DNA from: Spirochaetota bacterium
GTDB taxonomy: Bacteria > Spirochaetota > JAGLSM01
DNA length: 64,000 bases
Direction: 5' to 3'
NCBI GenBank assembly: GCA_030634165.1
Contig: DAOWBH010000001.1
Location: forward strand, 7,361-71,360
Below the pieces are notes generated by a model. It was not told the DNA's origin. It saw only the letters and a program-made list of their open reading frames with translations, and made no database searches. Shown here piece after piece: positions 29,371 through 63,549 of this stretch. Both the position numbers and the translations under genes were made by a program. Positions within the stretch are counted from its first letter, which is position 1. Every line of letters begins with the position of its first letter.

Positions 29371-30459
29371 CTAAGGTTTCCATGATACTACGTGAATGTT
29401 TTTTTGGAAAATTTTAAAATTAAACAAACGCCCGTCATTCGATAAATAAAAATTACGGTAAGCGCCGTTACCGGTATCAGCCTTAATAACTACCTTTTTG
29501 GTATCTCCTGAAACAGGTGAATAAATGTCAAAGTAGACATATACATACGGTTTTTTAACTCTTACATTTTTTGTAAAATAAATCATTCCGAATTCAGTAA
29601 TGCCCTTAATACCATACCATATATCTGTAGGAAGACTTACCGGCGTAAGCTTTGTTTTATGGATTAAATCCATCTTGTAAAGAACCTTTTTAAGCTTAAC
29701 CTTATCTTCCACGTATAAAATCTCAAACAATAAAACCTTATTACTATATGATGGAAAAACTGACATAATTTTCATCAGTTTTAACTTGCCTTTTAATTTC
29801 AAGACAAGACTCTTTTGAGGGATCGAATATGATTTAACCTTTTTATTTTTAATATTTACAATATCAATCCATTCAATCTGGACATCACTGTCAAAACGTG
29901 TCTCCCAAACCATGACTAATTGATCCTTAGACAACAAGAACATATTTCTGATTCTGGAAACCCCTTGTCTCAGATTTTTTAAACCAAAGGATTTTTTCAT
30001 TGAAACCCTGCGGGTAACTATTCTGTTCTTTTTTGTTTTATCAATCTGCCAGACTGTATAGACTGTATCATTTTTTATCCGAATCATTTCAAGGGAATAA
30101 ACACGGCCTGCTGAATCGTTATCCACAAATAAAAACTGACTTTTACCCTGAGGAATATCATTTTTATCCCGGTTAAGAACAAAATCCAGCTTTAATATAC
30201 CTGCGTAATCGAATTGAAGAATCTTAAAATTCGCATTATCCAGAAATGTTACAGTTCCATATTTACATGATATATAGCTTGTCAATAACTGTTGATCGTA
30301 AAGAAAGGCGGAATTTTTTGATTTATCGAGAATGCCCAGATGAGCTTTGCCGGATCCGAATGAAACTTTAAAATGAAACCTTTGTGTAAGTACATTTTCA
30401 CCCACACCGCAGGCATTTAACAATATCAGAATTAGAAGAATATAATACTTTAAAGGCAA
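29371..30459 (-). CDS. lipoprotein, hypothetical
   Basis: Signal peptide plus lipobox LLNACG. No recognisable domain. Confidence 0.35.
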   Translation of the reverse strand: MPLKYYILLILILLNACGVGENVLTQRFHFKVSFGSGKAHLGILDKSKNSAFLYDQQLLTSYISCKYGTVTFLDNANFKILQFDYAGILKLDFVLNRDKNDIPQGKSQFLFVDNDSAGRVYSLEMIRIKNDTVYTVWQIDKTKKNRIVTRRVSMKKSFGLKNLRQGVSRIRNMFLLSKDQLVMVWETRFDSDVQIEWIDIVNIKNKKVKSYSIPQKSLVLKLKGKLKLMKIMSVFPSYSNKVLLFEILYVEDKVKLKKVLYKMDLIHKTKLTPVSLPTDIWYGIKGITEFGMIYFTKNVRVKKPYVYVYFDIYSPVSGDTKKVVIKADTGNGAYRNFYLSNDGRLFNFKIFQKNIHVVSWKP

Positions 30460-30605
30460 GGAAATTTCCTGAATATAGATTTTATAGATACATAAAATTT
30501 ACAACATATCCAAGAATAGTCTATATTTTGATTCATGTATGTCAAGCTCTTTATCCAATATATGCAACAATCGCATATGTCAAAAAAAGTACTTTCATAC
30601 ACCAC

Positions 30606-30680
30606 CTAACCCTATCCCTTCCCTTGTTCGCTTCGCAGGGAAGGGGAACGTTGAAAATTAATATCGAGCATTTTTTTGGA
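30606..30680. repeat. Dispersed hairpin repeat, copy A (CCTAACCCTATCCCTTCCCT-loop-AGGGAAGGG...TTGAAAATTAATATCGAGCATTT)
   Basis: Near-identical to copy B at 56648-56715 except for the hairpin loop (12 nt here, 4 nt in copy B), which is the part expected to vary if the stem is selected. Intergenic. Confidence 0.7.
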
Positions 30681-30884: not shown

Positions 30885-31985
30885 CTAGAATCTAAGACCG
30901 GAACCAATACTGGTAAACAGCGTTCTGAAACCACTTGTATAATCAAGACCAATACTTATATCTGTCAGTAAAAATAAAATTGAATACCTCATACCAAGAC
31001 TTGTGGAGTATTTTGTGTTTGCTGAAGAATCAATAGTCATCCTCGATTCAAAACCTATCCCTGTTCTCCAATAAAACTGCCAGTTTCTATTGTAGTAATC
31101 ATTAACCAGAAAATGTAGTTCAAAATATGCAGAAATCTCTACCATCCTGTTTCTTTTTTCGTAAAACTTCCCCAGAAAACCAAAGGATAAAATAGTATTC
31201 TCCACATCAAATATAAAATCAGCTCCAAGAGCCGTTATTCCTGTATCCGGTACAGTGCTTAATAAACCCCATTGTGAAGCAAAAAGCTCCTTGGGAAGCG
31301 CCCAGTCATACCTGAATAGTACATTAAATGTAACCGATCTTGAGCGGGCATCACCCTTGTACTTGTTTCTCGCGTCATACTTCAGCTTTGAGTCCCTGTC
31401 TATTACGAGTTTTTTGTCTTTTTTCTTTTTACGCTGTTTTACTGCCTTATTTTTAATGGTCCTTTTTTTTACCGCATATACCGAAAATTTATATTTGGTT
31501 TTAAACAGATTTCTGACCTTACTTGTAAAATCAGAAAGTATTATATTTTTTTGAGCCAAAAAGTCAGAAATTGAAACCGTTGCAATAACCATTCCTGTTT
31601 TTATACTGAGAAGCCTTCCCTTAACACGGATAATACTTGAGTTTTTGAAATACTTTACTCTTCCGAAAAATATTAAATCTGCAGCAAGCCGCCTTCCAAA
31701 TCTCTGGAGAACAAGATCATTATCAAACTGTTGTTTGCTTGCTTTGTATTTTTTACGAAGTTCCAGGATATCTTCTTTTTCAACCAGATCAACATTCGGT
31801 AAATTTCTCAGAGAATTCTTTATAGAAATACTTATCTGATGAGTATAGTTTTTTATTACAGGATTTTTACCCTTATATTCCAAATCCATAATAGATACAA
31901 CCATAAACTCTTGCGCTTTTAAATTACCAAATATTAAAAGAACCAGAATAAGAATATACCCTGTTAAGAGTGAATACCTTTTCAT
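30885..31985 (-). CDS. outer-membrane beta-barrel protein, hypothetical, with a Lys-rich internal linker
   Basis: Signal peptide. C-terminal amphipathic strands ending ...GSGLRF. No catalytic motif. Confidence 0.4.
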   Translation of the reverse strand: MKRYSLLTGYILILVLLIFGNLKAQEFMVVSIMDLEYKGKNPVIKNYTHQISISIKNSLRNLPNVDLVEKEDILELRKKYKASKQQFDNDLVLQRFGRRLAADLIFFGRVKYFKNSSIIRVKGRLLSIKTGMVIATVSISDFLAQKNIILSDFTSKVRNLFKTKYKFSVYAVKKRTIKNKAVKQRKKKKDKKLVIDRDSKLKYDARNKYKGDARSRSVTFNVLFRYDWALPKELFASQWGLLSTVPDTGITALGADFIFDVENTILSFGFLGKFYEKRNRMVEISAYFELHFLVNDYYNRNWQFYWRTGIGFESRMTIDSSANTKYSTSLGMRYSILFLLTDISIGLDYTSGFRTLFTSIGSGLRF

Positions 31986-33497: not shown

Positions 33498-36400
33498 ATG
33501 CTAAACAAGACAATCAATAAAAAGTATAAAATAATAGGAAATATAGGCGAAGGCGGGATGAGTAAAGTATATCTTGCCAGGAATATTCATGATGAAAAAA
33601 AAGTAGCAGTAAAGTTTCTCAAAACCGGAACAATATCCGACAGAATCGAAGACCTTATAAGGTTCCGCGGAGAAGCGGCAATCATATCTGTACTCAAGCA
33701 TCCAAACATAGTAAAAATCCTTGAAATAGGTGAATATCAAAAAAAACACTATATTGTTATGGAGTATCTCAATGGAGAAAGTTTATCCGATAAAATATTG
33801 CATAACAGAAAATTCAAGGTAGATGATGCCGTAGAAATAGTAAAGCAAATATGCAAAGCCCTTGCCTACATACATGGTTTAGATATAATACACATGGATT
33901 TAAAACCCGGTAACATTATAATAAACAGTAATGTGAAATTAATAGACTTTGCTCTCGCTCAAATTAAAGAATCTACTCAAATAAAAAACACGGATGAGAT
34001 TGTAGGCACATTCAGTTACATGTCTCCTGAACAAAGCGGTACTGTAAAAAGTGAAGTTGACCAGAGGAGCGATCTTTACTCTCTTGGAATAATATTTTAC
34101 CAGATGCTAAGCGGTAAACTCCCATATAGAGGAAAGAGTATAAGTTCAATTATTCACCAGCATATATCTAAAACTCCAATACCCCTTGACAAGGGAAACA
34201 GAGAGATACCTGAAATAATTCAGATGATTGTAAAAAAACTAATGGAAAAGGATCCTGACAAGAGGTATCAAAGTACCAAAGGATTATTATCTGATCTTAT
34301 AAGGTTTGAAAAGGGAGACAGATCATTTAATCTTGACCTGCTGAACATTTCTATAAAACTTACTTATAAAACCAAGCTTGTAGGAATAGATGATAAATTA
34401 AAAAAAATAAAAAGGCTTTTTGATCATAGTCTTGAAAAAAATGGTTCAGCATGTCTTATAAGCGGAGAAGCCGGATGCGGTAAGACACGGCTGTCAGAGG
34501 AATTGCATACTTATGTTTCTTCAAATGGAGGAAATTTCATTTCGGGAAAATGTTTTTCATCAGAGAATCCTGAACCATATGCTCCTTTTAAAGACGCGCT
34601 TAATATCTATATAAACAGGTTCAACAGGTATTCAGAAAACAAAAAAAAGAAAATTATAGGAAAAATAAAAAGCCGGACAGGAAACCTTGGAGAAGCCATA
34701 TTAAAGCTCAACCCGATGCTTAAGACAATAATCGGTAAAACCCCGCCCCTTGTTAAACTGGAACCTGAAAGAGAGAACGAAAGATTTCTGATGGTTGTGA
34801 GCAAATTCTTCCAGGCTCTGGGAGCAGCTGAAAACGGTCTTGTCCTGAAACTGCAGGACCTTCAATGGGCTGATGAAGGAAGCATAGAAATCCTGAGTTT
34901 CATACTTGATAATATAAACAATATTCCGTTATTCCTTATCGGCACTTACAGGGACAACGAAGTAAAACCGGGGGGGAGGCTCTCAGGTCTGATAACAACA
35001 GCAAAATCCCAACCTAAAAGTTCAGTTAAACAAAAAAAGTTTCACAAGATTCATCTGGACCTTTTTAACAAAAAAGAAATGAACAGCTTTGTATCGGATA
35101 TGCTGCGTGACAAACAGGAAAATATACAGGAGATTTCGCATTTTGTTTTCCGGAAGAGCAAGGGAAATCCGTTTTTTGCGACTGAACTGATAAAACAGCT
35201 TATACTGAACTCTGCAATTTTTTACAAAAGAAACCGTTGGCATATTAACAAGCCGGTCCTCAAGAAAACTCAAGTATCCGAATTGATAGCTGACATACTA
35301 CTTAACAGGATAAAGAATTTAAACAGGGTACAGAAAATAATACTGTCATATTCGGCAGTAATAGGCAAAAAACTGGACATATCCCTTTTATATACTCTTT
35401 TTACTAACTCAAAGAAAAAACGGATATATTTTTCAAAAGAGAGAATTAAGGAAGCTATTGATGACGCTGTTTCTCTTCAGCTGCTTGAAAAAAACAATCA
35501 GGATAGAGGAAATTCTCTTTTTATTCATGACAGAATAAAAGAAGCTTTTTACAAGAATATAAAATTAAAGAAGAGAAGACAGCTTCACCTTCAGATTGCC
35601 GGAGCCCTGGAAAATATAAATAAAACTGCACTTAAGAAGGATATTCAAAATTGTGAAGTACTGTTTGATCTGGCTCATCATTATATAGAAGCAAAGGCTC
35701 CTGAAAAATCTCTGGAATATTCTTACCAGGCAGGGATTAAATCCAAAAATAACTACGCAAATGAAAATGCCGTAAAGTACTTTACAATTGCAAGAAACAT
35801 TTTGCTAAGGAGTGGAGATAAAACCAGTAAAATGTGGATTAAATGTACTGAACATCTCGGAGAAATATACCTGACAACTGGAAATAATGACAAAGCTATC
35901 AGGATATTTAATGAGATCCTGGATTTGATGCAGACTAAGACACAGAAGGCAAACATTTATAGACAGATAAGCTCGGGATATTTTAAAAAAGGAGATCTTA
36001 AAAACTGTGAATACTACGGCAGAATCGCCTTAAAACTCCTTGGAGAAAGAGTTCCTAAAACAAAGATAATATTGATATTGAGTATGATAAAAGAAACATT
36101 CCTGCACATACTTCATTCAGTTTTTCCTGGAGTCTTCCTAAAAAAGAAAAATACTGCAAATAGTGAAAAAAGGTTGAGGCAAACACTGATAATCCAGACT
36201 TATAACTCATTAAGCTGGTCATATGTTCTATCAGATACATGGAATTTCATCAGAACCGTACTCAGAATGCTCAACATATCCGAAAGCAGAATAGGTAAAT
36301 CAAAAGAACTTGCTATGAGCATGGGATTTTATGCCGCCGGTTGTATGGCCATACCTCTTTTTAGCAGGTCGTTGAAGTATCATATCAGGGCGCTCAAAAT

Positions 36401-38114
36401 TAAGAATGAACTTGGAGATGAATGGGGATCTGCACAGTCTCTTCAATTTTTGGGATACCTCTTTGAATGGAAAGCCGATTTCCATAGAAGCATCGATTAT
36501 TTCAGTAAAAGTCTGGATATATTCAAAAAGATCGGGGACACTAAAGAAACAACAATGTCCCAAAACGGTTTAGTATCAAACTACTATAATTTATCCGATT
36601 ATAAAAAGACACTTGATATTGGTATTGAGTATTTAGATTATTGCAAGAATAGCCTGGATAAATTTGGCATAGGAGATTCATACAACAATTTTTCAAAATG
36701 CTATATTGCCATGGGTGATTTTAACAACGCCGAAAAATACGCCAGGCAGGCATTAAAAATAAGTAATGAAAAGAATATGAGTTTGAATTACTGTATTTCA
36801 AATATCTATCTCGGTGTAGTTAATATGAAAAGAAAAAATCATGATACCGCATTGAAGTATCTCAATATAGCAAAAGATGTTTTTAAAAAAAACAAGCTTC
36901 TTAAACAATATTCTGTATTCCTTTATTTTTATTTAGCTCAAGCCTATATTCAAAAGTATAGGGAAAGTTCCAATTCAAAAGTGCTACTAAAGAAAATAAA
37001 AAAAACATGCAGATCCGGAATTAAAAAATCAAAATCATGGCCGACCCACTACCCTGTAGCACTTAGAACTATGGCCAATTATTTTGCATTAATAGATAAA
37101 AGTAAAAAAGCAGAAAAACTCTTCATTGAGGCGATAAGCCTCTGCCGGAAAAGAAACCTGCAATATGATCTTGCTAAATCACTCTACGATTACGGACTTT
37201 TTCTAAAATACAAAGGCAGAGAGATTGATACCATGTTTAATCTTGAATATGCATACAAAATTTTTAAAGGAATTGATTCAAAACTATTCCTGCAAAAAAC
37301 CGGTGATCTTCTAGGCATTAAAGAAGAACATAGAGCCATTGACAGATTAAAAGACAAACAGAAACTCATTTCTCTAATCAAGGTAAGTCAGAATATCAGT
37401 TCAATTCTAAATCTCAATGATCTTTTAAAACAGATAATATCAAAAGCAATTGAAGTCACCGGTGCCCAAAGGGGACACTTATTTATTGTTAATGATAAAA
37501 CAAAAAAGCTTGAAATTAAAGCCAGCACAAGTCCATTAAATGGAAAAATCAAACATTACTCTACCAATATAGTAGAACAGACATTCAAGACCCATAAGGC
37601 CATTATAACAACAAATGCGGAAATCGAAAAAGAGTATAAACAGTTCAACAGCATTGTTGAATATGGGCTGAAATCAATCCTATGTATTCCCATTATCCGT
37701 CATAAGAAACTAATAGGCGTTTTTTATATTGATAACTATCTATCAAGCGGGGTTTTTTCCGACGAGGATGTTGAACTCTTAAATGTCTTTATGGTTCAGG
37801 CGGCAATCGCCATTGAAAACGCAATAGTATACAGCAAAATTGATAATCTGAATAAAAACCTGGAATTGGAAATATTAGACCATAAAAAGACAGGTAAAAA
37901 ACTGCTTAAAGCACGTGATCAATTGGCAAAACGTGTAGATACTCTTGAAGGTTTTCTCCCTATCTGTTCATTCTGTAAAAAAATTCGGGATGATGACGGA
38001 AAATGGAACAATATAGAAACATATATAACAAAAAGGTCAAAAGCCAAATTCAGTCACGGTCTTTGTCCTGACTGCCTGAAAAAAAACTATCCTGAACACT
38101 CAAATCTGGTTTAA
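33498..38114 (+). CDS. Giant signalling protein: Ser/Thr protein kinase + STAND-type P-loop NTPase + TPR-like array + GAF domain + C-terminal Cys/His motif
   Basis: Kinase: G-loop GNIGEGGMSKVY, VAVK Lys, catalytic HMDLKPGN, DFA in place of DFG, SPE. P-loop GEAGCGKT near 34463, followed by an hhhhD Walker B-like segment. A long helical TPR-like region follows. GAF domain at about aa 1290-1450. C-terminus CSFCKKIRDDDGKWNNIETYITKRSKAKFSHGLCPDC. Confidence 0.75.
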   Translation: MLNKTINKKYKIIGNIGEGGMSKVYLARNIHDEKKVAVKFLKTGTISDRIEDLIRFRGEAAIISVLKHPNIVKILEIGEYQKKHYIVMEYLNGESLSDKILHNRKFKVDDAVEIVKQICKALAYIHGLDIIHMDLKPGNIIINSNVKLIDFALAQIKESTQIKNTDEIVGTFSYMSPEQSGTVKSEVDQRSDLYSLGIIFYQMLSGKLPYRGKSISSIIHQHISKTPIPLDKGNREIPEIIQMIVKKLMEKDPDKRYQSTKGLLSDLIRFEKGDRSFNLDLLNISIKLTYKTKLVGIDDKLKKIKRLFDHSLEKNGSACLISGEAGCGKTRLSEELHTYVSSNGGNFISGKCFSSENPEPYAPFKDALNIYINRFNRYSENKKKKIIGKIKSRTGNLGEAILKLNPMLKTIIGKTPPLVKLEPERENERFLMVVSKFFQALGAAENGLVLKLQDLQWADEGSIEILSFILDNINNIPLFLIGTYRDNEVKPGGRLSGLITTAKSQPKSSVKQKKFHKIHLDLFNKKEMNSFVSDMLRDKQENIQEISHFVFRKSKGNPFFATELIKQLILNSAIFYKRNRWHINKPVLKKTQVSELIADILLNRIKNLNRVQKIILSYSAVIGKKLDISLLYTLFTNSKKKRIYFSKERIKEAIDDAVSLQLLEKNNQDRGNSLFIHDRIKEAFYKNIKLKKRRQLHLQIAGALENINKTALKKDIQNCEVLFDLAHHYIEAKAPEKSLEYSYQAGIKSKNNYANENAVKYFTIARNILLRSGDKTSKMWIKCTEHLGEIYLTTGNNDKAIRIFNEILDLMQTKTQKANIYRQISSGYFKKGDLKNCEYYGRIALKLLGERVPKTKIILILSMIKETFLHILHSVFPGVFLKKKNTANSEKRLRQTLIIQTYNSLSWSYVLSDTWNFIRTVLRMLNISESRIGKSKELAMSMGFYAAGCMAIPLFSRSLKYHIRALKIKNELGDEWGSAQSLQFLGYLFEWKADFHRSIDYFSKSLDIFKKIGDTKETTMSQNGLVSNYYNLSDYKKTLDIGIEYLDYCKNSLDKFGIGDSYNNFSKCYIAMGDFNNAEKYARQALKISNEKNMSLNYCISNIYLGVVNMKRKNHDTALKYLNIAKDVFKKNKLLKQYSVFLYFYLAQAYIQKYRESSNSKVLLKKIKKTCRSGIKKSKSWPTHYPVALRTMANYFALIDKSKKAEKLFIEAISLCRKRNLQYDLAKSLYDYGLFLKYKGREIDTMFNLEYAYKIFKGIDSKLFLQKTGDLLGIKEEHRAIDRLKDKQKLISLIKVSQNISSILNLNDLLKQIISKAIEVTGAQRGHLFIVNDKTKKLEIKASTSPLNGKIKHYSTNIVEQTFKTHKAIITTNAEIEKEYKQFNSIVEYGLKSILCIPIIRHKKLIGVFYIDNYLSSGVFSDEDVELLNVFMVQAAIAIENAIVYSKIDNLNKNLELEILDHKKTGKKLLKARDQLAKRVDTLEGFLPICSFCKKIRDDDGKWNNIETYITKRSKAKFSHGLCPDCLKKNYPEHSNLV

Positions 38115-45799: not shown

Positions 45800-47581
45800 T
45801 TAACCCTGATTCTTTTTTGATTCTGTTTTTGGTTTGTCTGTCTTTTTTTTATTGCCTTTATCATTGCCTTTATCATTGCCTTTATCATTGCCTTTATTAT
45901 TAATAGAAGACAGATCAATCATGTCTCCGAGTCTAAAAGTACCCTTATCCTCACTTTTATACTGGTTTACCAGTTCTTTTTCGACATCTTTATTATAATC
46001 CTTTATTGATAGAGAAATCTTAGAACTATTCATGTCAATATTAAGAAGCTTGACATTTACAGAGTCCCCGACCTTAACCACTTCTTCAACCTTATCTACT
46101 TTTTTATTAGATAATTTTGAAATATGAACCAGTCCTTCAATTCCAGGTGAAAGCTCAACAAAAGCTCCAAAGTCAGAAACCCTGGTCACCTTGCCTGTCA
46201 TCTTGGATCCCGGAGGGTTATTGTAACTAAAAACAGCAAGCGGATTCTCCTCAAGCTGTTTAATACCAAGCCCTATCTTTTTATTTTTTTTATCAATTGA
46301 AAGGATCTGCACCTCTACCATATCTTCAACAGAAAACTGCTTTTTTGCATCATTGTCTTTTTTATCCCAGCTTAGGTCTTCTTTCCTCACAAGTCCTTCT
46401 ATGCCGTTTGAAAGTTCAACAAAAATACCAAATTCTGTTATGTTTACAATTTTTCCGGTATGTTTTGAAGCAAGAGGGAAATCCTCTTCTATTGAATCAA
46501 ATGGATTCTGAAGTAATTGCCGGAAGCCCAGTGAAATCCTTCTCTTTTCCTTGTCAATTCCAAGAATTTTAACTTGTATCTCAGAACCTGTTTCGAGTAC
46601 CTGTTTAGGGTGATTAATCTTTTTTGTCCAGGATAGTTCTGATATATGAAGTAAACCCTCGATGCCTCCAGCCAGAGAAACAAAAGCACCAAAATTTTCA
46701 AGTTTAACAACTTTCCCCTCGACAACATCTCCAACGTTATGAGCTTCAGAAAAAGAATGTATTGGATCCGGTTCCAGATCCTTTAAGGATAATGACACCT
46801 GATGCTTTTCTGTATTAATTTTTAGAATTTTAACTTTAACTTTATCACCAATACTAACAAGAGAACTTGCCTTTGCCTGCTTATTCCATGAAAGATCTCC
46901 AAGAGAAATGAGTCCATCCATTCCGCCAATATCAACAAAAACTCCAAACCTGCTGATACCGCTGACAGTACCTTCTATTACATCTTTTTCTTTTATCCTG
47001 CTAAAAACCTCTTGTATGTCTTCTTCTCTCTTAGCAGACAGAATATCCCTTCTCGAAGCAACAACACTGAAATTCTTGCCCTTATCAACTTTTATTATTT
47101 TAAAATCAAAGATCTTTCCAATATATTGTTTAGGATCCTGTACCCGTGAAAGTTCGAGGTGACTTAATGGAACATAGCCCGGAACACCGTCAAATTCGGC
47201 CATCATTCCACCCTTGGCTTCCTTAACAATCTTGCCGGAAACAAGTGCTCCGGTTTCAAAAGCATCTTCAAGAGTTTTCCGCATAACCCTCGACAAAGCG
47301 CGTTTCTTTGATACAACAAGTTCCCCTGATTTTCCATGGGTTGTAAGAACCACTACCGGAAATTTTTCTCCCTCCACCGGAGGCGTATCAAACTCTTCAA
47401 GTAATATTTTACCTTCAGATTTATATCCGACATTGACCCATACGGATTCGTTGTCAACCATAACAACGGTACCTTCAATAACTGCACCTTTTTGGACTGA
47501 CTGCATTGTGGAATGTGCATCCAAATCGAGTGTGGCTGTTTCCATTGTCATATCTTCGCTGCTTTCAAGTTTTTCTTCCAA
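45800..47581 (-). CDS. rpsA: 30S ribosomal protein S1 with a C-terminal (GNDK)4 repeat tail
   Basis: Six S1 domains, with a recurring GxxVxGxVxxIxxFGAFVxL pattern. The C-terminus reads [19 protein letters not shown]. Confidence 0.85.
45852..45899. repeat. 12-bp tandem repeat x4 (TTGCCTTTATCA) inside the rpsA 3' end
   Basis: Direct read of the sequence. It encodes (GNDK)n on the minus strand. Confidence 0.85.
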
Positions 47582-55296: not shown

Positions 55297-56505
55297 TTAT
55301 TCCGTACGACGGTCTCTAAGCGCAGCATACTTAACCTGTAAACCAAATAAATTGATAAAACCTTCCGCGTCTTTCTGGTTATAAACATCATCTTCTTCGA
55401 ATGTGGCAAGAGCCTCATCATACATGCTGTATTTACTCTTACGCCCCATAACAATTACATTCCCCTTATACAGCCGCATCTTAACAAGACCTGTTACCTT
55501 CTCCTGGGTTTTTTCAATAAACGCGTCCAGGGCTTCTTTGAGAGGAGTAAACCATTCACCATTATATATCATTTCAGCATATTTTATAGCTATTTGCTGT
55601 TTGTAATGCATAGTAGACTTATCAAGAACGAGACTCTCAATCTGCTGATGTGCTGAATACAGAATAGTTGATCCCGGAGTCTCATATACACCCCTGCTTT
55701 TTATCCCGACAAGACGGTTTTCAACTATATCCACACGGCCTATCCCATGCCTTCCGCCAATCTTATTGAGTTCAATTAAGAGTTCCATCGGCTCCATCTT
55801 TTTACCGTTTATTGAAACCACAATACCCTTTTCAAAACCAAGTTCTATATCCTCATATTCATCAGGAGTATCCATAAGATTATTTGATAAAACAAACATA
55901 TCATCATTGGGGGGATTCCATGGATCTTCCAGAACTCCTCCCTCAAAGGAAATGTGCATGAGATTTCTGTCACTTGAATAAGGTTTGGATTTTGTAACCG
56001 GAACCGGAATCCCCTTCTCTTTCGCATAATCTATTAAATCGCTGCGTGATTTCATATCCCATATTCTCCATGGGGATATTATCTCAAGATCCGGAGCAAG
56101 CGCTTTGAAAGTTAATTCAAAACGAACCTGATCATTACCCTTTCCGGTACAGCCATGCGCGATTGCAACGGCACCCTCTTTGCGCGCGATCTCAACCTGT
56201 CTTTTCGCGATTATCGGGCGGGCAAGAGATGTACCAAGAAGGTAAAGATCTTCATAAACAGCATGCGCCTTTACGGCCTGAAATACATAATCTTCAACGA
56301 ATTCTTTTCTAAGATCCTCAATGTAAATCTTGCTTGCTCCGGTATTTTTTGCTTTTTCTTCAAGCCCTGTTAAATCCTCACCCAGCCCTACCTCCGCGGC
56401 ATAGGCAATAACCTCCGCATCATATGTATCCTTGAGCCATGTAAGTATAACAGAAGTATCAAGTCCTCCGGAATACGCAAGCACAATCTTCTTTTTTGCT
56501 GCCAT
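55297..56505 (-). CDS. argG: argininosuccinate synthase
   Basis: N-terminal [12 protein letters not shown]-loop. Length 402 aa. Confidence 0.9.
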
Positions 56506-56647: not shown

Positions 56648-56715
56648 CCGCTGACCTAACCCTATCCCTTCCCTCGAAGGGAAGGGTACTGTTGAAAATT
56701 AATTTCGAGCATTTC
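56648..56715. repeat. Dispersed hairpin repeat, copy B (CCTAACCCTATCCCTTCCCT-CGAA-GGGAAGGG...TTGAAAATTAATTTCGAGCATTT)
   Basis: Matches copy A at 30606-30680, with a shorter loop. Intergenic between argG and argF. Confidence 0.7.
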
Positions 56716-56770
56716 TTTATCTATAGGGGCTAAGGGGAATAGGTAAATCTACCTATATCTAAAGACTGCA

Positions 56771-57706
56771 TCACCCCATTAATAATGCAAGTACAGCTTT
56801 TTGAGCATGGAGTCTGTTTTCGGACTGATCAAATACAACAGAATGACTTCCGTCAATAACATCAGCACTGATCTCTTCTCCACGATGAGCCGGCAGACAG
56901 TGCATAACAATAACATCATCCTTGGCATTTGCAAGCAAAGATTCATTAACGCAGTAGTTTTTAAAAATTTCAGTTCTTTTTTCTTTTTCGGACTCCTGCC
57001 CCATACTTGTCCATACATCAGTGTATATAACATCAGCATCCTTTACAGCAGCCGTATAATCACTGGTAATCTCAAGTTTTGCACCGGAAACATCAGCCTT
57101 GTCAGCAACAGAATCGAGGAGTTTTCTATCCAGCATATATCCTTCAGGAGAAACAGATACAAAATTCATTCCGGCATGGGCACAAGCAAAGGCCAGCGAT
57201 ACAGCAACATTATTACCGTCTCCCACATAAACAAGCTTCTTTCCCTTTAAACTTCCTTTATGCTCTTGAATTGTAAGAACATCAGCAAGAGCCTGGCATG
57301 GATGAGAAAAATCTGAAAGGCCGTTAATAACAGGAATAGACGCGGATTTCCCCATCTTTATAACATTATCGTGAGCGTATGTCCTTAACATAATTCCATC
57401 TGTCCATCTCTCAAGATTTTTGGCTACATCGCTTACCGACTCTCTCTCTCCAAGTTTAAAATTTGTCTGCGACAGGGATATTGAGGCACCGCCCAGGTGA
57501 AGCATCGCAACTTCAAAAGTAACTCTGGTCCTTAAAGATGCTTTTTCAAAAATCATTGCCAGAGTTTTGCCTTTTAAAATTGGTTTATTTGATCTTTTTT
57601 TCTTCCACTCTGCTTTTAATTTTTTTGCTGTTTCCAGAATAAGGTGAAATTCATCAGTTGTTATCCTGTCAAGACTAATAAGGTCTTTGTTGTTTAATCT
57701 TTTCAT
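56771..57706 (-). CDS. argF: ornithine carbamoyltransferase
   Basis: S(L)RTR carbamoyl-phosphate motif and the HCLP motif. Confidence 0.85.
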   Translation of the reverse strand: MKRLNNKDLISLDRITTDEFHLILETAKKLKAEWKKKRSNKPILKGKTLAMIFEKASLRTRVTFEVAMLHLGGASISLSQTNFKLGERESVSDVAKNLERWTDGIMLRTYAHDNVIKMGKSASIPVINGLSDFSHPCQALADVLTIQEHKGSLKGKKLVYVGDGNNVAVSLAFACAHAGMNFVSVSPEGYMLDRKLLDSVADKADVSGAKLEITSDYTAAVKDADVIYTDVWTSMGQESEKEKRTEIFKNYCVNESLLANAKDDVIVMHCLPAHRGEEISADVIDGSHSVVFDQSENRLHAQKAVLALLMG

Positions 57707-62346: not shown

Positions 62347-63549
62347 TTATTTTTTAGCATCATTTTTTATTTTTTGCCTGTTTCTAAGCAGCATATTTAA
62401 AATATCAGATCGTCCGAATTTTTGAGCTATACTAAGAGGTGTTGACCCTTTCGGGAATCCATCAACCTTTTTTAAAGTTTTAAAATATGCTGAAGCGCCA
62501 TTATCAAGAAGAAGATTCATTATCTTAAGCTTTTTGTAAATCACCGCATAATGAAGAGCCGTAAATCCGAATTCACTCTCTACATCGTTGATATTTGCTC
62601 CTTTCTTAAGTAATAGAAGAGCTATTCTATAACTGCCCTTTGCGACAGCCCTGTGAAGGGGGGTTATATCGTACTTTGCCTTTTTATTGACGTCAGCCCC
62701 TTTCTGAATTAAAAGGGAAGCCGAACCGTAACTATCCTTCCAGCTTGCCTGGTGAAGCGGGGTTGTCCCGTTTTTTGCTGCGGCATTGACATCAGCACCT
62801 GATTTAATAAGAAAACGGACAACATCGAGACTATCTTTCCAACTCGCGTAATGAAGAAGTGTGACCCCTTCTGAATCCGTATCGGTTACTTTTCCTCCCA
62901 CTTTCAAAAGGAGTTTTAAAATCTTCAGACGCCCGTGCAGAGCCGCATAATGCATAGGAAGAAGCCCGTATTTTTTTGTCCTTGCCGTTACTGACGCTTT
63001 TTTCTTAAGAAGCATTTTTATGATTTTCATATTGTCTTTAATGACTGCATAGTGAAGAGGTGTCTTTCCATTCTTCATCTTTGCGTTTACTTGCGCCCCC
63101 TTTTTTAAGAGAAAACCAGCGATCTGATAATGAAGCCTCTTCACAGCAAAATGAAGCGGTGTCTCGCCTGTATATGTCTGATAATTTTTATCCGCACCGC
63201 TATTTATCAGAATTGAAGCAGTTGAAATGCTGTTAATCCATGATGAATAATGGAGAGGAGTCCATCCGTCAAAGTCTCTTGCGTTTAAATCAGCTTTATG
63301 CTTTACAAGCAGCTTAATCATTGAGGTATACCCCTTCATTACAGCTATATGAAGAGGAGTCCATCCATATTTTTTCTCGGCAAAACTTACCTTTGCCCCC
63401 GCGGCAATTTGTTTTTTCACCATTGAAAGGCTGCCTGATTTTACCGCCTTTACTAAATCATTATTAAGGTCAGCCAGAACCAGGGACAATGAAAAAAATA
63501 TGAATATAGAAACCGTAAAAATTATTCTTAAAAATCCGGGCCTTTTCAA
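62347..63549 (-). CDS. secreted ankyrin-repeat protein (about 10 repeats)
   Basis: Signal peptide. Repeated GxTPLHxAxxxGxxxxxxxLLxxGAdvN units. Confidence 0.65.
   Translation of the reverse strand: MKRPGFLRIIFTVSIFIFFSLSLVLADLNNDLVKAVKSGSLSMVKKQIAAGAKVSFAEKKYGWTPLHIAVMKGYTSMIKLLVKHKADLNARDFDGWTPLHYSSWINSISTASILINSGADKNYQTYTGETPLHFAVKRLHYQIAGFLLKKGAQVNAKMKNGKTPLHYAVIKDNMKIIKMLLKKKASVTARTKKYGLLPMHYAALHGRLKILKLLLKVGGKVTDTDSEGVTLLHYASWKDSLDVVRFLIKSGADVNAAAKNGTTPLHQASWKDSYGSASLLIQKGADVNKKAKYDITPLHRAVAKGSYRIALLLLKKGANINDVESEFGFTALHYAVIYKKLKIMNLLLDNGASAYFKTLKKVDGFPKGSTPLSIAQKFGRSDILNMLLRNRQKIKNDAKK

What the first reader, a model, noticed from the sequence alone, without database searches (positions are those of the whole stretch)
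30606..30680. Second dispersed repeat family: a GC-rich hairpin whose loop differs between copies while the stem is conserved
Copy A at 30606-30680 and copy B at 56648-56715 share CCTAACCCTATCCCTTCCCT ... GGGAAGGG(N)AC(N)TTGAAAATTAAT(A/T)TCGAGCATTT. The loop is TGTTCGCTTCGCA in A and CGAA in B, while the stem and flanks are conserved. That pattern fits a selected hairpin, such as a small RNA, a protein-binding element or a REP-like repeat. Both copies lie on the plus strand between minus-strand genes. A TTGAAA plus 17-nt spacer follows each hairpin, which could be a -35-like box.
Basis: seen in the sequence. Interest (0 to 1): 0.55.

Follow-up and report, generated by a model that had tools for sequence, protein, structure and literature searches.

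The report
BoxC-like triplex-motif intergenic DNA repeat
The two copies are real: each is a short intergenic DNA repeat whose GC-rich core has the same three-part "hairpin plus G-rich third strand" layout as the BoxC/PIT/TM_ECO elements of E. coli, so this is a new example of a known, functionally obscure kind of repeat, not a small RNA or a promoter.

Summary
There are two same-strand copies, A at 30604-30677 and B at 56654-56718. They are about 91% identical apart from a 9-nt indel in the hairpin loop. No further copy exists in about 72 kb of this genome, and no shuffle reproduces the match.

The "conserved left flank" is part of the structure. Read on the minus strand, each copy is CCCTTCCCT - loop 1 - AGGGAAGGG - ATA - GGGTTAGGT. 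That is a pyrimidine arm, a purine arm and a G-rich third domain that mirrors the purine arm in 8 of 9 positions. This is the class II purine-motif "potential intrastrand triplex" layout described for E. coli BoxC/PIT/TM_ECO (PMC4666352), where loops also vary more than stems. The same E. coli sequence has also been read as a G-quadruplex/hairpin switch (PMC5100583).

These are the only G/C-rich motifs of this kind in the window (0 in 100 shuffles). In viral contigs, where only the hairpin was required, 45% of such hairpins carry a compatible third domain, against 2% at random positions. GGGTTAGG is the commonest form.

Relatives with the same argB-argF-argG synteny have a 62-64 nt spacer without the element; here the spacer is 265 nt. 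This points to a lineage-specific insertion.

There is no Rfam match and no terminator. No plus-strand promoter is called at the element.

Verdict: a new member of a known kind. Function remains unknown, as for BoxC.

The parts
30604..30677 (-). Copy A, whole repeat unit (triplex-motif core plus AT-rich tail)
30637..30645 (-). Copy A pyrimidine arm (Y), CCCTTCCCT on the minus strand
30625..30636 (-). Copy A loop 1, 12 nt. It contains a tandem TTCGC-TTCGC on the + strand and exceeds the ITxF loop limit of 6 nt.
30616..30624 (-). Copy A purine arm (R), AGGGAAGGG on the minus strand
30613..30615 (-). Copy A loop 2, ATA
30604..30612 (-). Copy A third (reverse-Hoogsteen) domain, GGGTTAGGT. It runs antiparallel to R; 8 of 9 triads are allowed (G.G-C, T.A-T) and one is a mismatch (A opposite G).
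   Evidence: triad rules from PMC4666352
30646..30677 (-). Copy A conserved AT-rich tail (+ strand GAACGTTGAAAATTAATATCGAGCATTTTTTT)
56654..56718 (-). Copy B, whole repeat unit
56678..56686 (-). Copy B pyrimidine arm (Y), CCCTTCCCT on the minus strand
56675..56677 (-). Copy B loop 1, 3 nt (TCG on the minus strand)
56666..56674 (-). Copy B purine arm (R), AGGGAAGGG
56663..56665 (-). Copy B loop 2, ATA
56654..56662 (-). Copy B third (reverse-Hoogsteen) domain, GGGTTAGGT
56687..56718 (-). Copy B conserved AT-rich tail (+ strand TACTGTTGAAAATTAATTTCGAGCATTTCTTT)

Best explanation
The two copies belong to a short (65-74 bp) dispersed, non-coding intergenic DNA repeat. Its GC-rich core is a class II purine-motif 'potential intrastrand triplex' element of the BoxC/PIT/TM_ECO kind. 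On the G-rich (minus) strand the order is: pyrimidine arm CCCTTCCCT, variable loop 1, purine arm AGGGAAGGG, loop ATA, third domain GGGTTAGGT.

Shown here: the three-part anatomy; its non-random occurrence; the intergenic position; the absence of the element from the orthologous argF-argG spacer of relatives; and the recurrence of the same hairpin plus third-domain combination in unrelated metagenomic and viral contigs.

Inferred from work on the E. coli elements: when the G-rich strand is transiently single-stranded during replication or transcription, the two arms form a 9-bp hairpin. The third domain can then fold back into the hairpin's major groove, or the G-tracts can form a quadruplex-like fold. 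In duplex DNA the element is mostly B-form. It acts as a DNA-level structural or 'selfish' repeat and makes its neighbourhood prone to slippage and indels; the 9-nt loop indel, with TTCGC duplicated in copy A, fits this. It is not a dedicated sRNA, promoter, terminator or operator. How it spreads is unknown.
For: The exact three-part pattern CCCTTCCCT-N-AGGGAAGGG-ATA-GGGTTAGGT occurs twice and in 0 of 100 shuffles.

[quoted passage not shown] In 100 dinucleotide shuffles the count was 0 for 9-nt stems and a mean of 0.01 for 8-nt stems.

The ssDNA hairpin is predicted on both strands (-8.7 to -10.7 kcal/mol; z -4.3 for B and -2.2 for A).

The third domain is a real part of the class. Among 119 distinct viral CCCTTCCC...GGGAAGGG hairpins, where no third domain was required, 53 (45%) have a mirror third domain with at most 1 mismatch, against 2% at random positions. 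GGGTTAGG, the window's version, is the commonest (22). Among 43 distinct metagenome or GTDB sequences, 18 fit all five unforced third-domain positions, against 0.36% expected.

Two of the three GTDB hits to the 19-mer flank also carry the hairpin, in an Aggregatilineales MAG and an uncultured bacterium.

Syntenic relatives have a 62-64 nt argF-argG spacer without the element, against 265 nt here.

Published properties of TM_ECO match: always intergenic, loops less conserved than stems, no strand bias, occasional inverted pairs, no promoter or terminator activity, and association with local indels (PMC4666352). I also saw inverted pairs and tandem arrays in metagenome relatives. The E. coli element is confirmed in 5409 of 5426 genomes, in stretches with no annotated feature under the match in the rows listed.
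Against: Only two copies are visible, and the rest of the genome could not be reached. 'Dispersed family' therefore rests on two copies plus indirect hints.

The third domain has one non-canonical triad (A opposite G-C). Copy A's loop 1 (12 nt) exceeds the 1-6 nt used by ITxF.

The exact TM_ECO pattern is not matched.

Even for E. coli TM_ECO, triplex formation was shown only for isolated single strands in vitro and was not detected by in vivo DMS footprinting (PMC4666352).

The conserved 32-nt AT-rich tail is unexplained by the triplex model.

Both copies have the G-rich strand in the sense orientation of the flanking genes and lie 145-149 nt upstream of a start codon. This could hint at an RNA-level or regulatory role, although two copies are too few to judge.
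Confidence: 0.65

Rival explanations
1. A hairpin-only, REP-like element acting at the RNA level. It would be transcribed as part of the minus-strand operon mRNAs, and the 9-bp GC hairpin would block 3'-5' exonucleases or create a processing site. That would uncouple the stability of the upstream transcript (argF; ORF 30885-31985) from the downstream gene. Under this view the G-rich third domain is incidental.
For: Both copies sit between co-directional genes, 52 nt (B) and 207 nt (A) after the upstream stop codon, and both are in the same orientation relative to transcription. A stable hairpin is predicted in RNA on the minus strand. In low-GC metagenome loci, related elements lie mostly at gene 3' ends, often between convergent genes.
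Against: The third domain is enriched about 20-fold next to this hairpin in an unbiased sample, so it is not incidental. In related loci the orientation relative to flanking genes is mixed. No U-tract follows the hairpin and no terminator is called on either strand. E. coli PIT elements showed no terminator activity according to PMC4666352.
Confidence: 0.15
2. A G-quadruplex/hairpin switch. The G-tracts of the purine arm plus the third domain would fold into a quadruplex that competes with the hairpin, as proposed for the same E. coli sequence (HPG1/HPG2). This would modulate transcription or replication.
For: The minus strand reads GGG-AA-GGG-ATA-GGG-TTA-GG. Many relatives have four full G3 tracts, and 30 of the 53 viral triplex-compatible cases also fit the canonical quadruplex pattern. 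Kaplan et al. showed by CD that the E. coli motif switches between hairpin and quadruplex depending on the ion (PMC5100583).
Against: Neither window copy matches the canonical (G3+N1-7)x4 pattern, because the fourth tract is only GG. In the viral sample, 23 triplex-compatible cases lack a canonical quadruplex, while only 5 show the reverse. The commonest third domain, GGGTTAGG, ends in GG.
Confidence: 0.08
3. A cis-regulatory module for the downstream genes. The AT-rich, partly palindromic tail (TTGAAAATTAATWTCGAG) would bind a regulator or nucleoid protein, or the element would bring a promoter to argG and ORF 29371-30459.
For: Both copies lie 145-149 nt upstream of a minus-strand start codon. 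Minus-strand promoter-like sites lie just downstream of each copy: TTGATA-18-TAAAAT at 56647-56618 and TTGACA-16-TAGACT at 30545-30518. The tail is 27/32 identical overall and 25/27 over its palindrome-containing part, GTTGAAAATTAAT.TCGAGCATTT.TTT.
Against: The promoter-like sites lie outside the conserved unit and are not shared between copies. The two downstream genes are functionally unrelated. Relatives run argF-argG with a 62-64 nt spacer and no such site. No promoter is called within the element itself.
Confidence: 0.06
4. A small plus-strand RNA gene, or a chance or purely local duplication.
For: The copies are on the strand opposite to all neighbouring genes. A T-run follows copy A about 30 nt after the hairpin. 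A promoter-like site (TTTACA-18-TATATT, 30498-30527) lies about 77 nt upstream of copy A on the + strand.
Against: There is no Rfam match. Copy B has no plus-strand promoter call, and neither copy has a terminator call. The T-run is not conserved in B. Chance is excluded by the shuffles. A local duplication is unlikely because the copies are 26 kb apart in otherwise unrelated spacers, and the region between them is housekeeping and syntenic with a relative.
Confidence: 0.04

Closest known systems
E. coli BoxC / PIT (potential intrastrand triplex) element / TM_ECO (Hoyne and Maher 2000, as cited in Holder et al. 2015, PMC4666352)
   Same: The layout on the G-rich strand is the same: a 9-nt pyrimidine arm, a short variable loop, a 9-nt purine arm, a 3-nt loop, and a 9-nt G-rich third domain mirroring the purine arm (class II purine motif). 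Both are G/C-rich, strictly intergenic and multi-copy, with loops less conserved than stems, and neither has promoter or terminator features. Relatives of the window element also occur as inverted pairs, like TM_ECO types A+B (the E. coli example is).
   Different: The sequence differs: CCCTTCCCT/AGGGAAGGG/GGGTTAGGT with loop ATA, against CCCTCNCCC/GGGNGAGGG/GGGNGAGGG with loop TTA or CCG. The TM_ECO pattern is not matched. The third domain has one mismatch, and copy A has a 12-nt loop 1. The host is an AT-rich (about 36% GC) uncultured bacterium, possibly Spirochaetota, not a proteobacterium. The unit carries a 32-nt AT-rich tail that has no counterpart in the TM_ECO motif as described in PMC4666352.
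HPG1/HPG2 G-quadruplex-hairpin-duplex switch of E. coli (Kaplan et al. 2016, PMC5100583)
   Same: This is the same E. coli element read as four G-tracts preceded by a conserved C-rich flank that can form a hairpin. It is found mostly between tandem or convergent gene pairs.
   Different: The window copies have only three G3 tracts plus GG, so they do not meet the canonical quadruplex pattern.
REP/BIME repetitive extragenic palindromes and REPINs mobilised by RAYT transposases (background knowledge; REP and BIME are defined in the introduction of PMC4666352)
   Same: Both are short GC-rich imperfect palindromes dispersed in intergenic regions, often within operons. Relatives form clusters and arrays (L051, L067).
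   Different: No conserved GTAG-type head precedes the palindrome. No RAYT or other transposase was seen among the window ORFs that were scanned. The defining extra feature here is the third G-rich domain, which REPs lack.

Membership tests
G/C-rich class II intrastrand triplex motif (ITxF definition, PMC4666352) | Watson-Crick hairpin of a pyrimidine arm (5') and a homopurine arm, stem 6-15 nt, at most one mismatch | tested here: met
   A perfect 9-bp stem, CCCTTCCCT/AGGGAAGGG, is present in both copies.
G/C-rich class II intrastrand triplex motif (ITxF definition, PMC4666352) | Third domain 3' of the purine arm, antiparallel to it, forming G.G-C, A.A-T or T.A-T triads, with at most one mismatched triplet | tested here: met
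   GGGTTAGGT gives 8 of 9 allowed triads and one mismatch in both copies. No such motif appeared in 100 shuffles.
G/C-rich class II intrastrand triplex motif (ITxF definition, PMC4666352) | Both loops 1-6 nt | tested here: inconclusive
   Copy B meets the criterion with loops of 3 and 3 nt. Copy A has a loop 2 of 3 nt but a loop 1 of 12 nt, outside the ITxF range.
G/C-rich class II intrastrand triplex motif (ITxF definition, PMC4666352) | The isolated strand actually folds into a triplex (CD/NMR) | not testable with these tools
   This needs oligonucleotide biophysics. For TM_ECO it was shown in vitro but not in vivo.
E. coli TM_ECO / BoxC sequence family | Pattern CCCTCNCCC N3-6 GGGNGAGGG N3 GGGNGAGGG | tested here: not met
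   The pattern has 0 matches in the window. The element is analogous in architecture but is not a member of this sequence family.
E. coli TM_ECO / BoxC sequence family | Intergenic and multi-copy, with stems more conserved than loops | tested here: met
   Both copies are intergenic. The stems are identical and loop 1 differs by a 9-nt indel. Only two copies are visible.
Canonical G-quadruplex motif | Four runs of at least three G separated by 1-7 nt | tested here: not met
   The regular expression fails on both copies, which have three G3 runs plus GG.
REP / REPIN with RAYT | Conserved GTAG-like tetranucleotide at the foot of the palindrome, and a cognate RAYT gene in the genome | tested here: inconclusive
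   The bases 5' of the hairpin differ between copies (ACGTT in A, CAGTA in B) and there is no shared GTAG. No transposase was found among the 19 window ORFs scanned. The rest of the genome is not available.
Intrinsic (rho-independent) terminator | GC-rich hairpin followed directly by a T/U run | tested here: not met
   No terminator-like site is called on either strand in either spacer.
Any curated RNA family (Rfam 15) | Covariance-model match at or near the gathering score | tested here: not met
   There are no matches at gathering thresholds. In permissive mode only chance-level hits appear.

The most novel reading that the evidence does not exclude
The CCCTTCCC / GGGAAGGG / GGGTTAGG(T) module could be more than a convergent structural motif. 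It could be a horizontally spreading DNA element, or the recognition structure of an unidentified trans-acting protein such as a single-strand-specific transposase or a structure-specific nuclease. The observations that prompt this reading are: near-identical 30-40 nt versions occur in unrelated bacterial phyla and in phage contigs; some phage contigs carry 2-5 copies in a single orientation; and in this genome the module is embedded in a longer conserved unit with an AT-rich tail.
Probability: 0.1. Interest if true: 0.6.

Novelty: new member of a known kind. Interest (0 to 1): 0.3.

Why it matters
The finding extends the BoxC/PIT/TM type of repeat to an AT-rich, uncultured, probably spirochaete-like lineage. 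This type has been studied almost only in E. coli and noted in cyanobacteria and a few pathogens. The searches also show that one specific version, CCCTTCCC/GGGAAGGG with a GGGTTAGG or GGG[AT][AT]GGG third domain, recurs across metagenomes and phage contigs far more often than chance allows. For annotation, such elements should be masked as structural repeats rather than called as sRNAs, promoters or small ORFs. They can also coincide with breaks in short-read assemblies, as seen here. The finding does not by itself settle the long-standing question of what these elements do.

Tried and rejected
- **Known RNA families.** Rfam at gathering thresholds over the whole window and in permissive mode over both spacers gave nothing meaningful. 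No tRNA or tmRNA was found.
- **Promoter and terminator scans.** No terminators are called.
- **ArgR operator.** I considered this because copy B sits upstream of argG. I rejected it because copy A's neighbours are unrelated to arginine metabolism and syntenic relatives lack the site.
- **attL/attR of a 26-kb island.** I rejected this because the interval is housekeeping (argG-dapA-dapB-folK-panBC-scpAB...hisD) and collinear with relative L012.
- **Similarity to plasmids and phages.** blastn against both gave only chance-level hits. A viral scan for the AT-rich tail gave 0 hits.
- **More of the same genome.** Two look-ups with TTG-start ORFs failed. Two others added only about 7.5 kb beyond the window start, with no new copy. 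Proteins from fetched loci cannot be used to walk further.
- **Orientation relative to genes.** A crude stop-to-stop ORF analysis of related loci is unreliable in GC-rich contigs, and it was mixed in low-GC ones.
- **Pyrimidine-motif triplex on the C-rich strand.** I checked this by hand and it does not fit, because A lies opposite A where T is required.

Full report
**1. Observation**

The two copies exist as described. The left block CCTAACCCTATCCCTTCCCT and the right block TTGAAAATTAATWTCGAGCATTT each occur exactly twice in the window. No extra match appears with up to three mismatches, and no shuffle gave two matches.

The shared unit is 30604-30677 (copy A) and 56654-56718 (copy B), both on the + strand. 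Outside the loop, 59 of 65 aligned positions are identical. The 9-bp stem CCCTTCCCT/AGGGAAGGG is identical in both. Loop 1 is 12 nt in A and 3 nt in B, a 9-nt indel plus one substitution. In A the loop contains a tandem TTCGC-TTCGC, which looks like a slippage duplication; this is read directly from the sequence.

A profile built from the two copies finds nothing else in the window or in about 7.5 kb of additional sequence from the same organism.

**2. Anatomy**

On the minus strand each copy reads 5'-CCCTTCCCT-(loop 1)-AGGGAAGGG-ATA-GGGTTAGGT-3'. The third block runs antiparallel to the purine arm. It gives G.G-C or T.A-T triads at 8 of 9 positions, with one mismatch (A opposite a G-C pair).

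This is the class II purine-motif intrastrand triplex layout: pyrimidine domain, purine domain, reverse-Hoogsteen domain. The triad rules come from Holder et al. 2015 (PMC4666352).

I wrote an ITxF-style scanner with stems of 8 or 9 nt, at most one mismatched triplet, loop 1 up to 12 nt and loop 2 up to 6 nt. It finds these two sites as the only G/C-rich motifs in 64 kb. In 100 dinucleotide shuffles it found none with 9-nt stems and a mean of 0.01 with 8-nt stems.

The hairpin itself is predicted for single-stranded DNA on either strand. Energies are -8.7 to -10.7 kcal/mol, with z -4.3 for B and -2.2 for A.

A conserved 32-nt AT-rich tail lies 5' of the pyrimidine arm on the minus strand. The triplex model does not account for it.

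**3. Context**

The window is about 36% GC, with negative GC skew on the + strand throughout and nearly all genes on the minus strand.

- Copy A lies between an unknown 366-aa ORF (30885-31985) and a 362-aa LIC_12708-like ORF (29371-30459).
- Copy B lies between argF (56771-57706) and argG (55297-56505).
- Each copy is 145-149 nt upstream of the next start codon.
- Each copy has its G-rich strand in the sense orientation of the flanking genes.

No terminator-like site is called in either spacer. No promoter-like site is called at or within either copy; the one + strand call nearby (30498-30527) lies about 77 nt upstream of copy A. The minus-strand promoter-like sites (56647-56618 and 30545-30518) lie outside the repeat unit and are not shared between copies. 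There is no Rfam match at any threshold and no tRNA.

**4. Comparison with relatives**

The closest ArgG homologues are only about 70% identical, so this is a poorly sampled lineage. One close homologue is named as a Spirochaetota MAG and shares the recA-argC-argB-argF-argG order. This placement is weak evidence.

In two syntenic relatives the argF-argG spacer is 62-64 nt and contains no such element (L012, L013). In the window the spacer is 265 nt. The element is therefore a lineage-specific addition to an operon spacer, not a conserved regulatory site.

The 26 kb between the copies is housekeeping and collinear with L012. This rules out the reading of the copies as att sites flanking an island.

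Independent assemblies of the same population break inside or next to the element. Logan contigs L005 and L007 start within the hairpins, and ENA scaffold_694 ends 58 nt from copy A. The two copies share fewer than 31 consecutive bases. The breaks therefore hint at further copies, population heterogeneity or coverage loss at the structure. This evidence is weak.

**5. The wider class**

The 19-mer CCTAACCCTATCCCTTCCC hits three GTDB representative genomes. Two of them, an Aggregatilineales MAG and an uncultured bacterium, also carry the hairpin partner a few bases on.

A metagenome scan that fixed both arms, the ATA loop and the first GGG of the third domain returned 47 loci. Counting these together with the matching GTDB, viral and window sequences gives 43 distinct sequences. 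Of these, 18 fit all five unforced third-domain positions ([AT][AT]GGG), where composition predicts 0.36%. A further 11 fit four of the five.

An unbiased test required only the hairpin CCCTTCCC-N3-8-GGGAAGGG in viral contigs.

| Set (viral contigs, hairpin only required) | Third domain with at most 1 mismatch |
|---|---|
| 119 distinct hairpins | 53 (45%) |
| Random positions in the same contigs | 2% |

GGGTTAGG, the window's version, was the commonest third domain (22 cases). Of the 53 compatible cases, 23 do not fit the canonical G-quadruplex pattern. Only 5 hairpins fit the quadruplex pattern without being triplex-compatible.

In low-GC loci the elements are intergenic and often lie between convergent genes. 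Their orientation relative to genes is mixed. Some occur as inverted pairs about 55 nt apart (L037, L044, L064) or in tandem arrays with a period of about 81 nt (L051, L067).

**6. What is known**

Holder et al. 2015 (PMC4666352) describe exactly this kind of element. TM_ECO (CCCTCNCCC N3-6 GGGNGAGGG N3 GGGNGAGGG) was earlier named BoxC and then PIT. Its reported properties are:

- It is always intergenic and shows no strand bias.
- Its loops are less conserved than its stems.
- It is sometimes found in inverted pairs.
- It has no promoter or terminator activity.
- It forms a triplex as an isolated strand in vitro, but this was not detected by in vivo DMS footprinting.
- It is statistically associated with local indels and rearrangements between strains.

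Kaplan et al. 2016 (PMC5100583) read the same E. coli sequence (GGGAGAGGGTTAGGGTGAGGG preceded by a C-rich flank) as a G-quadruplex/hairpin/duplex switch.

I confirmed the E. coli element directly. A 34-mer matches 5409 of 5426 complete genomes, with a median of 18 places per genome and no annotated feature under the match in the listed rows. One example lies between lldD and trmL with an inverted partner.

**7. Interpretation**

The best-supported reading is a BoxC/PIT-like dispersed structural DNA repeat (confidence 0.65).

*Shown:* the three-part anatomy; non-random occurrence; intergenic position; insertion relative to relatives; class-wide enrichment of the third domain.

*Inferred from the E. 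coli work:* transient hairpin or triplex folding of the G-rich strand when it is single-stranded. Here that strand is the non-template strand of the flanking genes and, judging from GC skew, probably the lagging-strand template. A tendency to local slippage is also inferred. The mode of spread is unknown.

*Rivals:*

| Rival | Confidence | Main argument against |
|---|---|---|
| Hairpin-only RNA-level stabiliser | 0.15 | The third domain is enriched and orientation in related loci is mixed |
| Quadruplex switch | 0.08 | Neither window copy has a fourth G3 tract |
| Regulatory site or promoter carrier | 0.06 | Downstream genes are unrelated, relatives lack it, and the promoter-like sites lie outside the unit |
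| Plus-strand sRNA, or chance | 0.04 | No Rfam match, no shared promoter or terminator, and shuffles exclude chance |

**8. Membership and novelty**

The element meets the structural definition of a G/C-rich class II intrastrand triplex motif. Copy B meets it fully. Copy A fails only the ITxF loop-1 length limit.

It does not match the TM_ECO sequence pattern. It is therefore an analogue in a different lineage, not a member of that sequence family. It fails the canonical quadruplex pattern, the intrinsic-terminator pattern and every Rfam model. Whether it is a REP/RAYT-type element could not be decided.

It is a new member of a known kind. Interest is modest, because the function stays as obscure as that of BoxC itself.

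**9. Limits**

Only about 72 kb of this genome could be examined. Two copies give no statistics on orientation or spacing. The viral and metagenome hits are not phylogenetically independent. No structural or expression experiment is possible with these tools.

Noticed in passing
It is an element of about 145 nt with terminal inverted repeats GTTGCACAACCTGATTTTTTTGAAAAATG ... CATTTTCAAAAAAATCAGGTTGTGCAAC, and it looks like a MITE. One copy lies 58 nt from copy A, directly after the stop codon of ORF 30885-31985. Rfam gave only weak miRNA-like hits.
   Followed up: partly
window 30628-30637: Loop 1 of copy A contains a tandem TTCGC-TTCGC. The 9-nt difference from copy B therefore looks like a slippage duplication inside the hairpin loop.
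   Followed up: partly
window 56724-56756: Between the argF stop codon and copy B there is a + strand G-tract segment, TAGGGGCTAAGGGGAATAGG (56724-56743). It overlaps a small hairpin, ATAGGTA-AATC-TACCTAT (56739-56756). It could be a degenerate inverted partner of the triplex motif, like the E. coli A+B pairs, but no convincing alignment was found.
   Followed up: partly
window 62347-63549 (about 62394-62507): Four independent metagenome assemblies of this organism all end within this ORF. The ORF encodes a protein with about nine ankyrin repeats, and the internal repeats probably cause the breaks.
   Followed up: partly
window 45845-45892: A 12-nt tandem repeat, TTTATCATTGCC (3-4 units), lies near the 3' end of the minus-strand ORF 45800-47581.
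   Followed up: no
window 33498-38114: A large 1538-aa ORF combines a Ser/Thr protein kinase, an AAA ATPase, TPR repeats and a GAF domain. It is one of the few + strand genes in the window.
   Followed up: no
L051 185-376; L067 708-897: GC-rich metagenome contigs carry three tandem units, with a period of about 81 nt, each holding a perfect triplex motif (CCCTTCCCC-ACGTA-GGGGGAAGGG-ATA-GGGATGGGG on the G-rich strand). These arrays resemble BIMEs.
   Followed up: no
L075, L077, L146, L158, L165 (IMG/VR contigs): Putative phage contigs hold 2-5 copies of the CCCTTCCC/GGGAAGGG hairpin. In L077, L146, L158 and L165 each copy has its third domain on the same strand. This suggests a link between orientation and transcription or replication in phages.
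   Followed up: partly
L008 7380-7465 (also L022, L066): A viral contig has two different triplex-type hairpins in tandem, immediately upstream of a gene start. One is TM_ECO-like (CCCCTCTCC/GGAGAGGGG with a CACCCCTAA flank) and the other is of the window type (CCCTTCCCC/GGGGAAGGGG).
   Followed up: no
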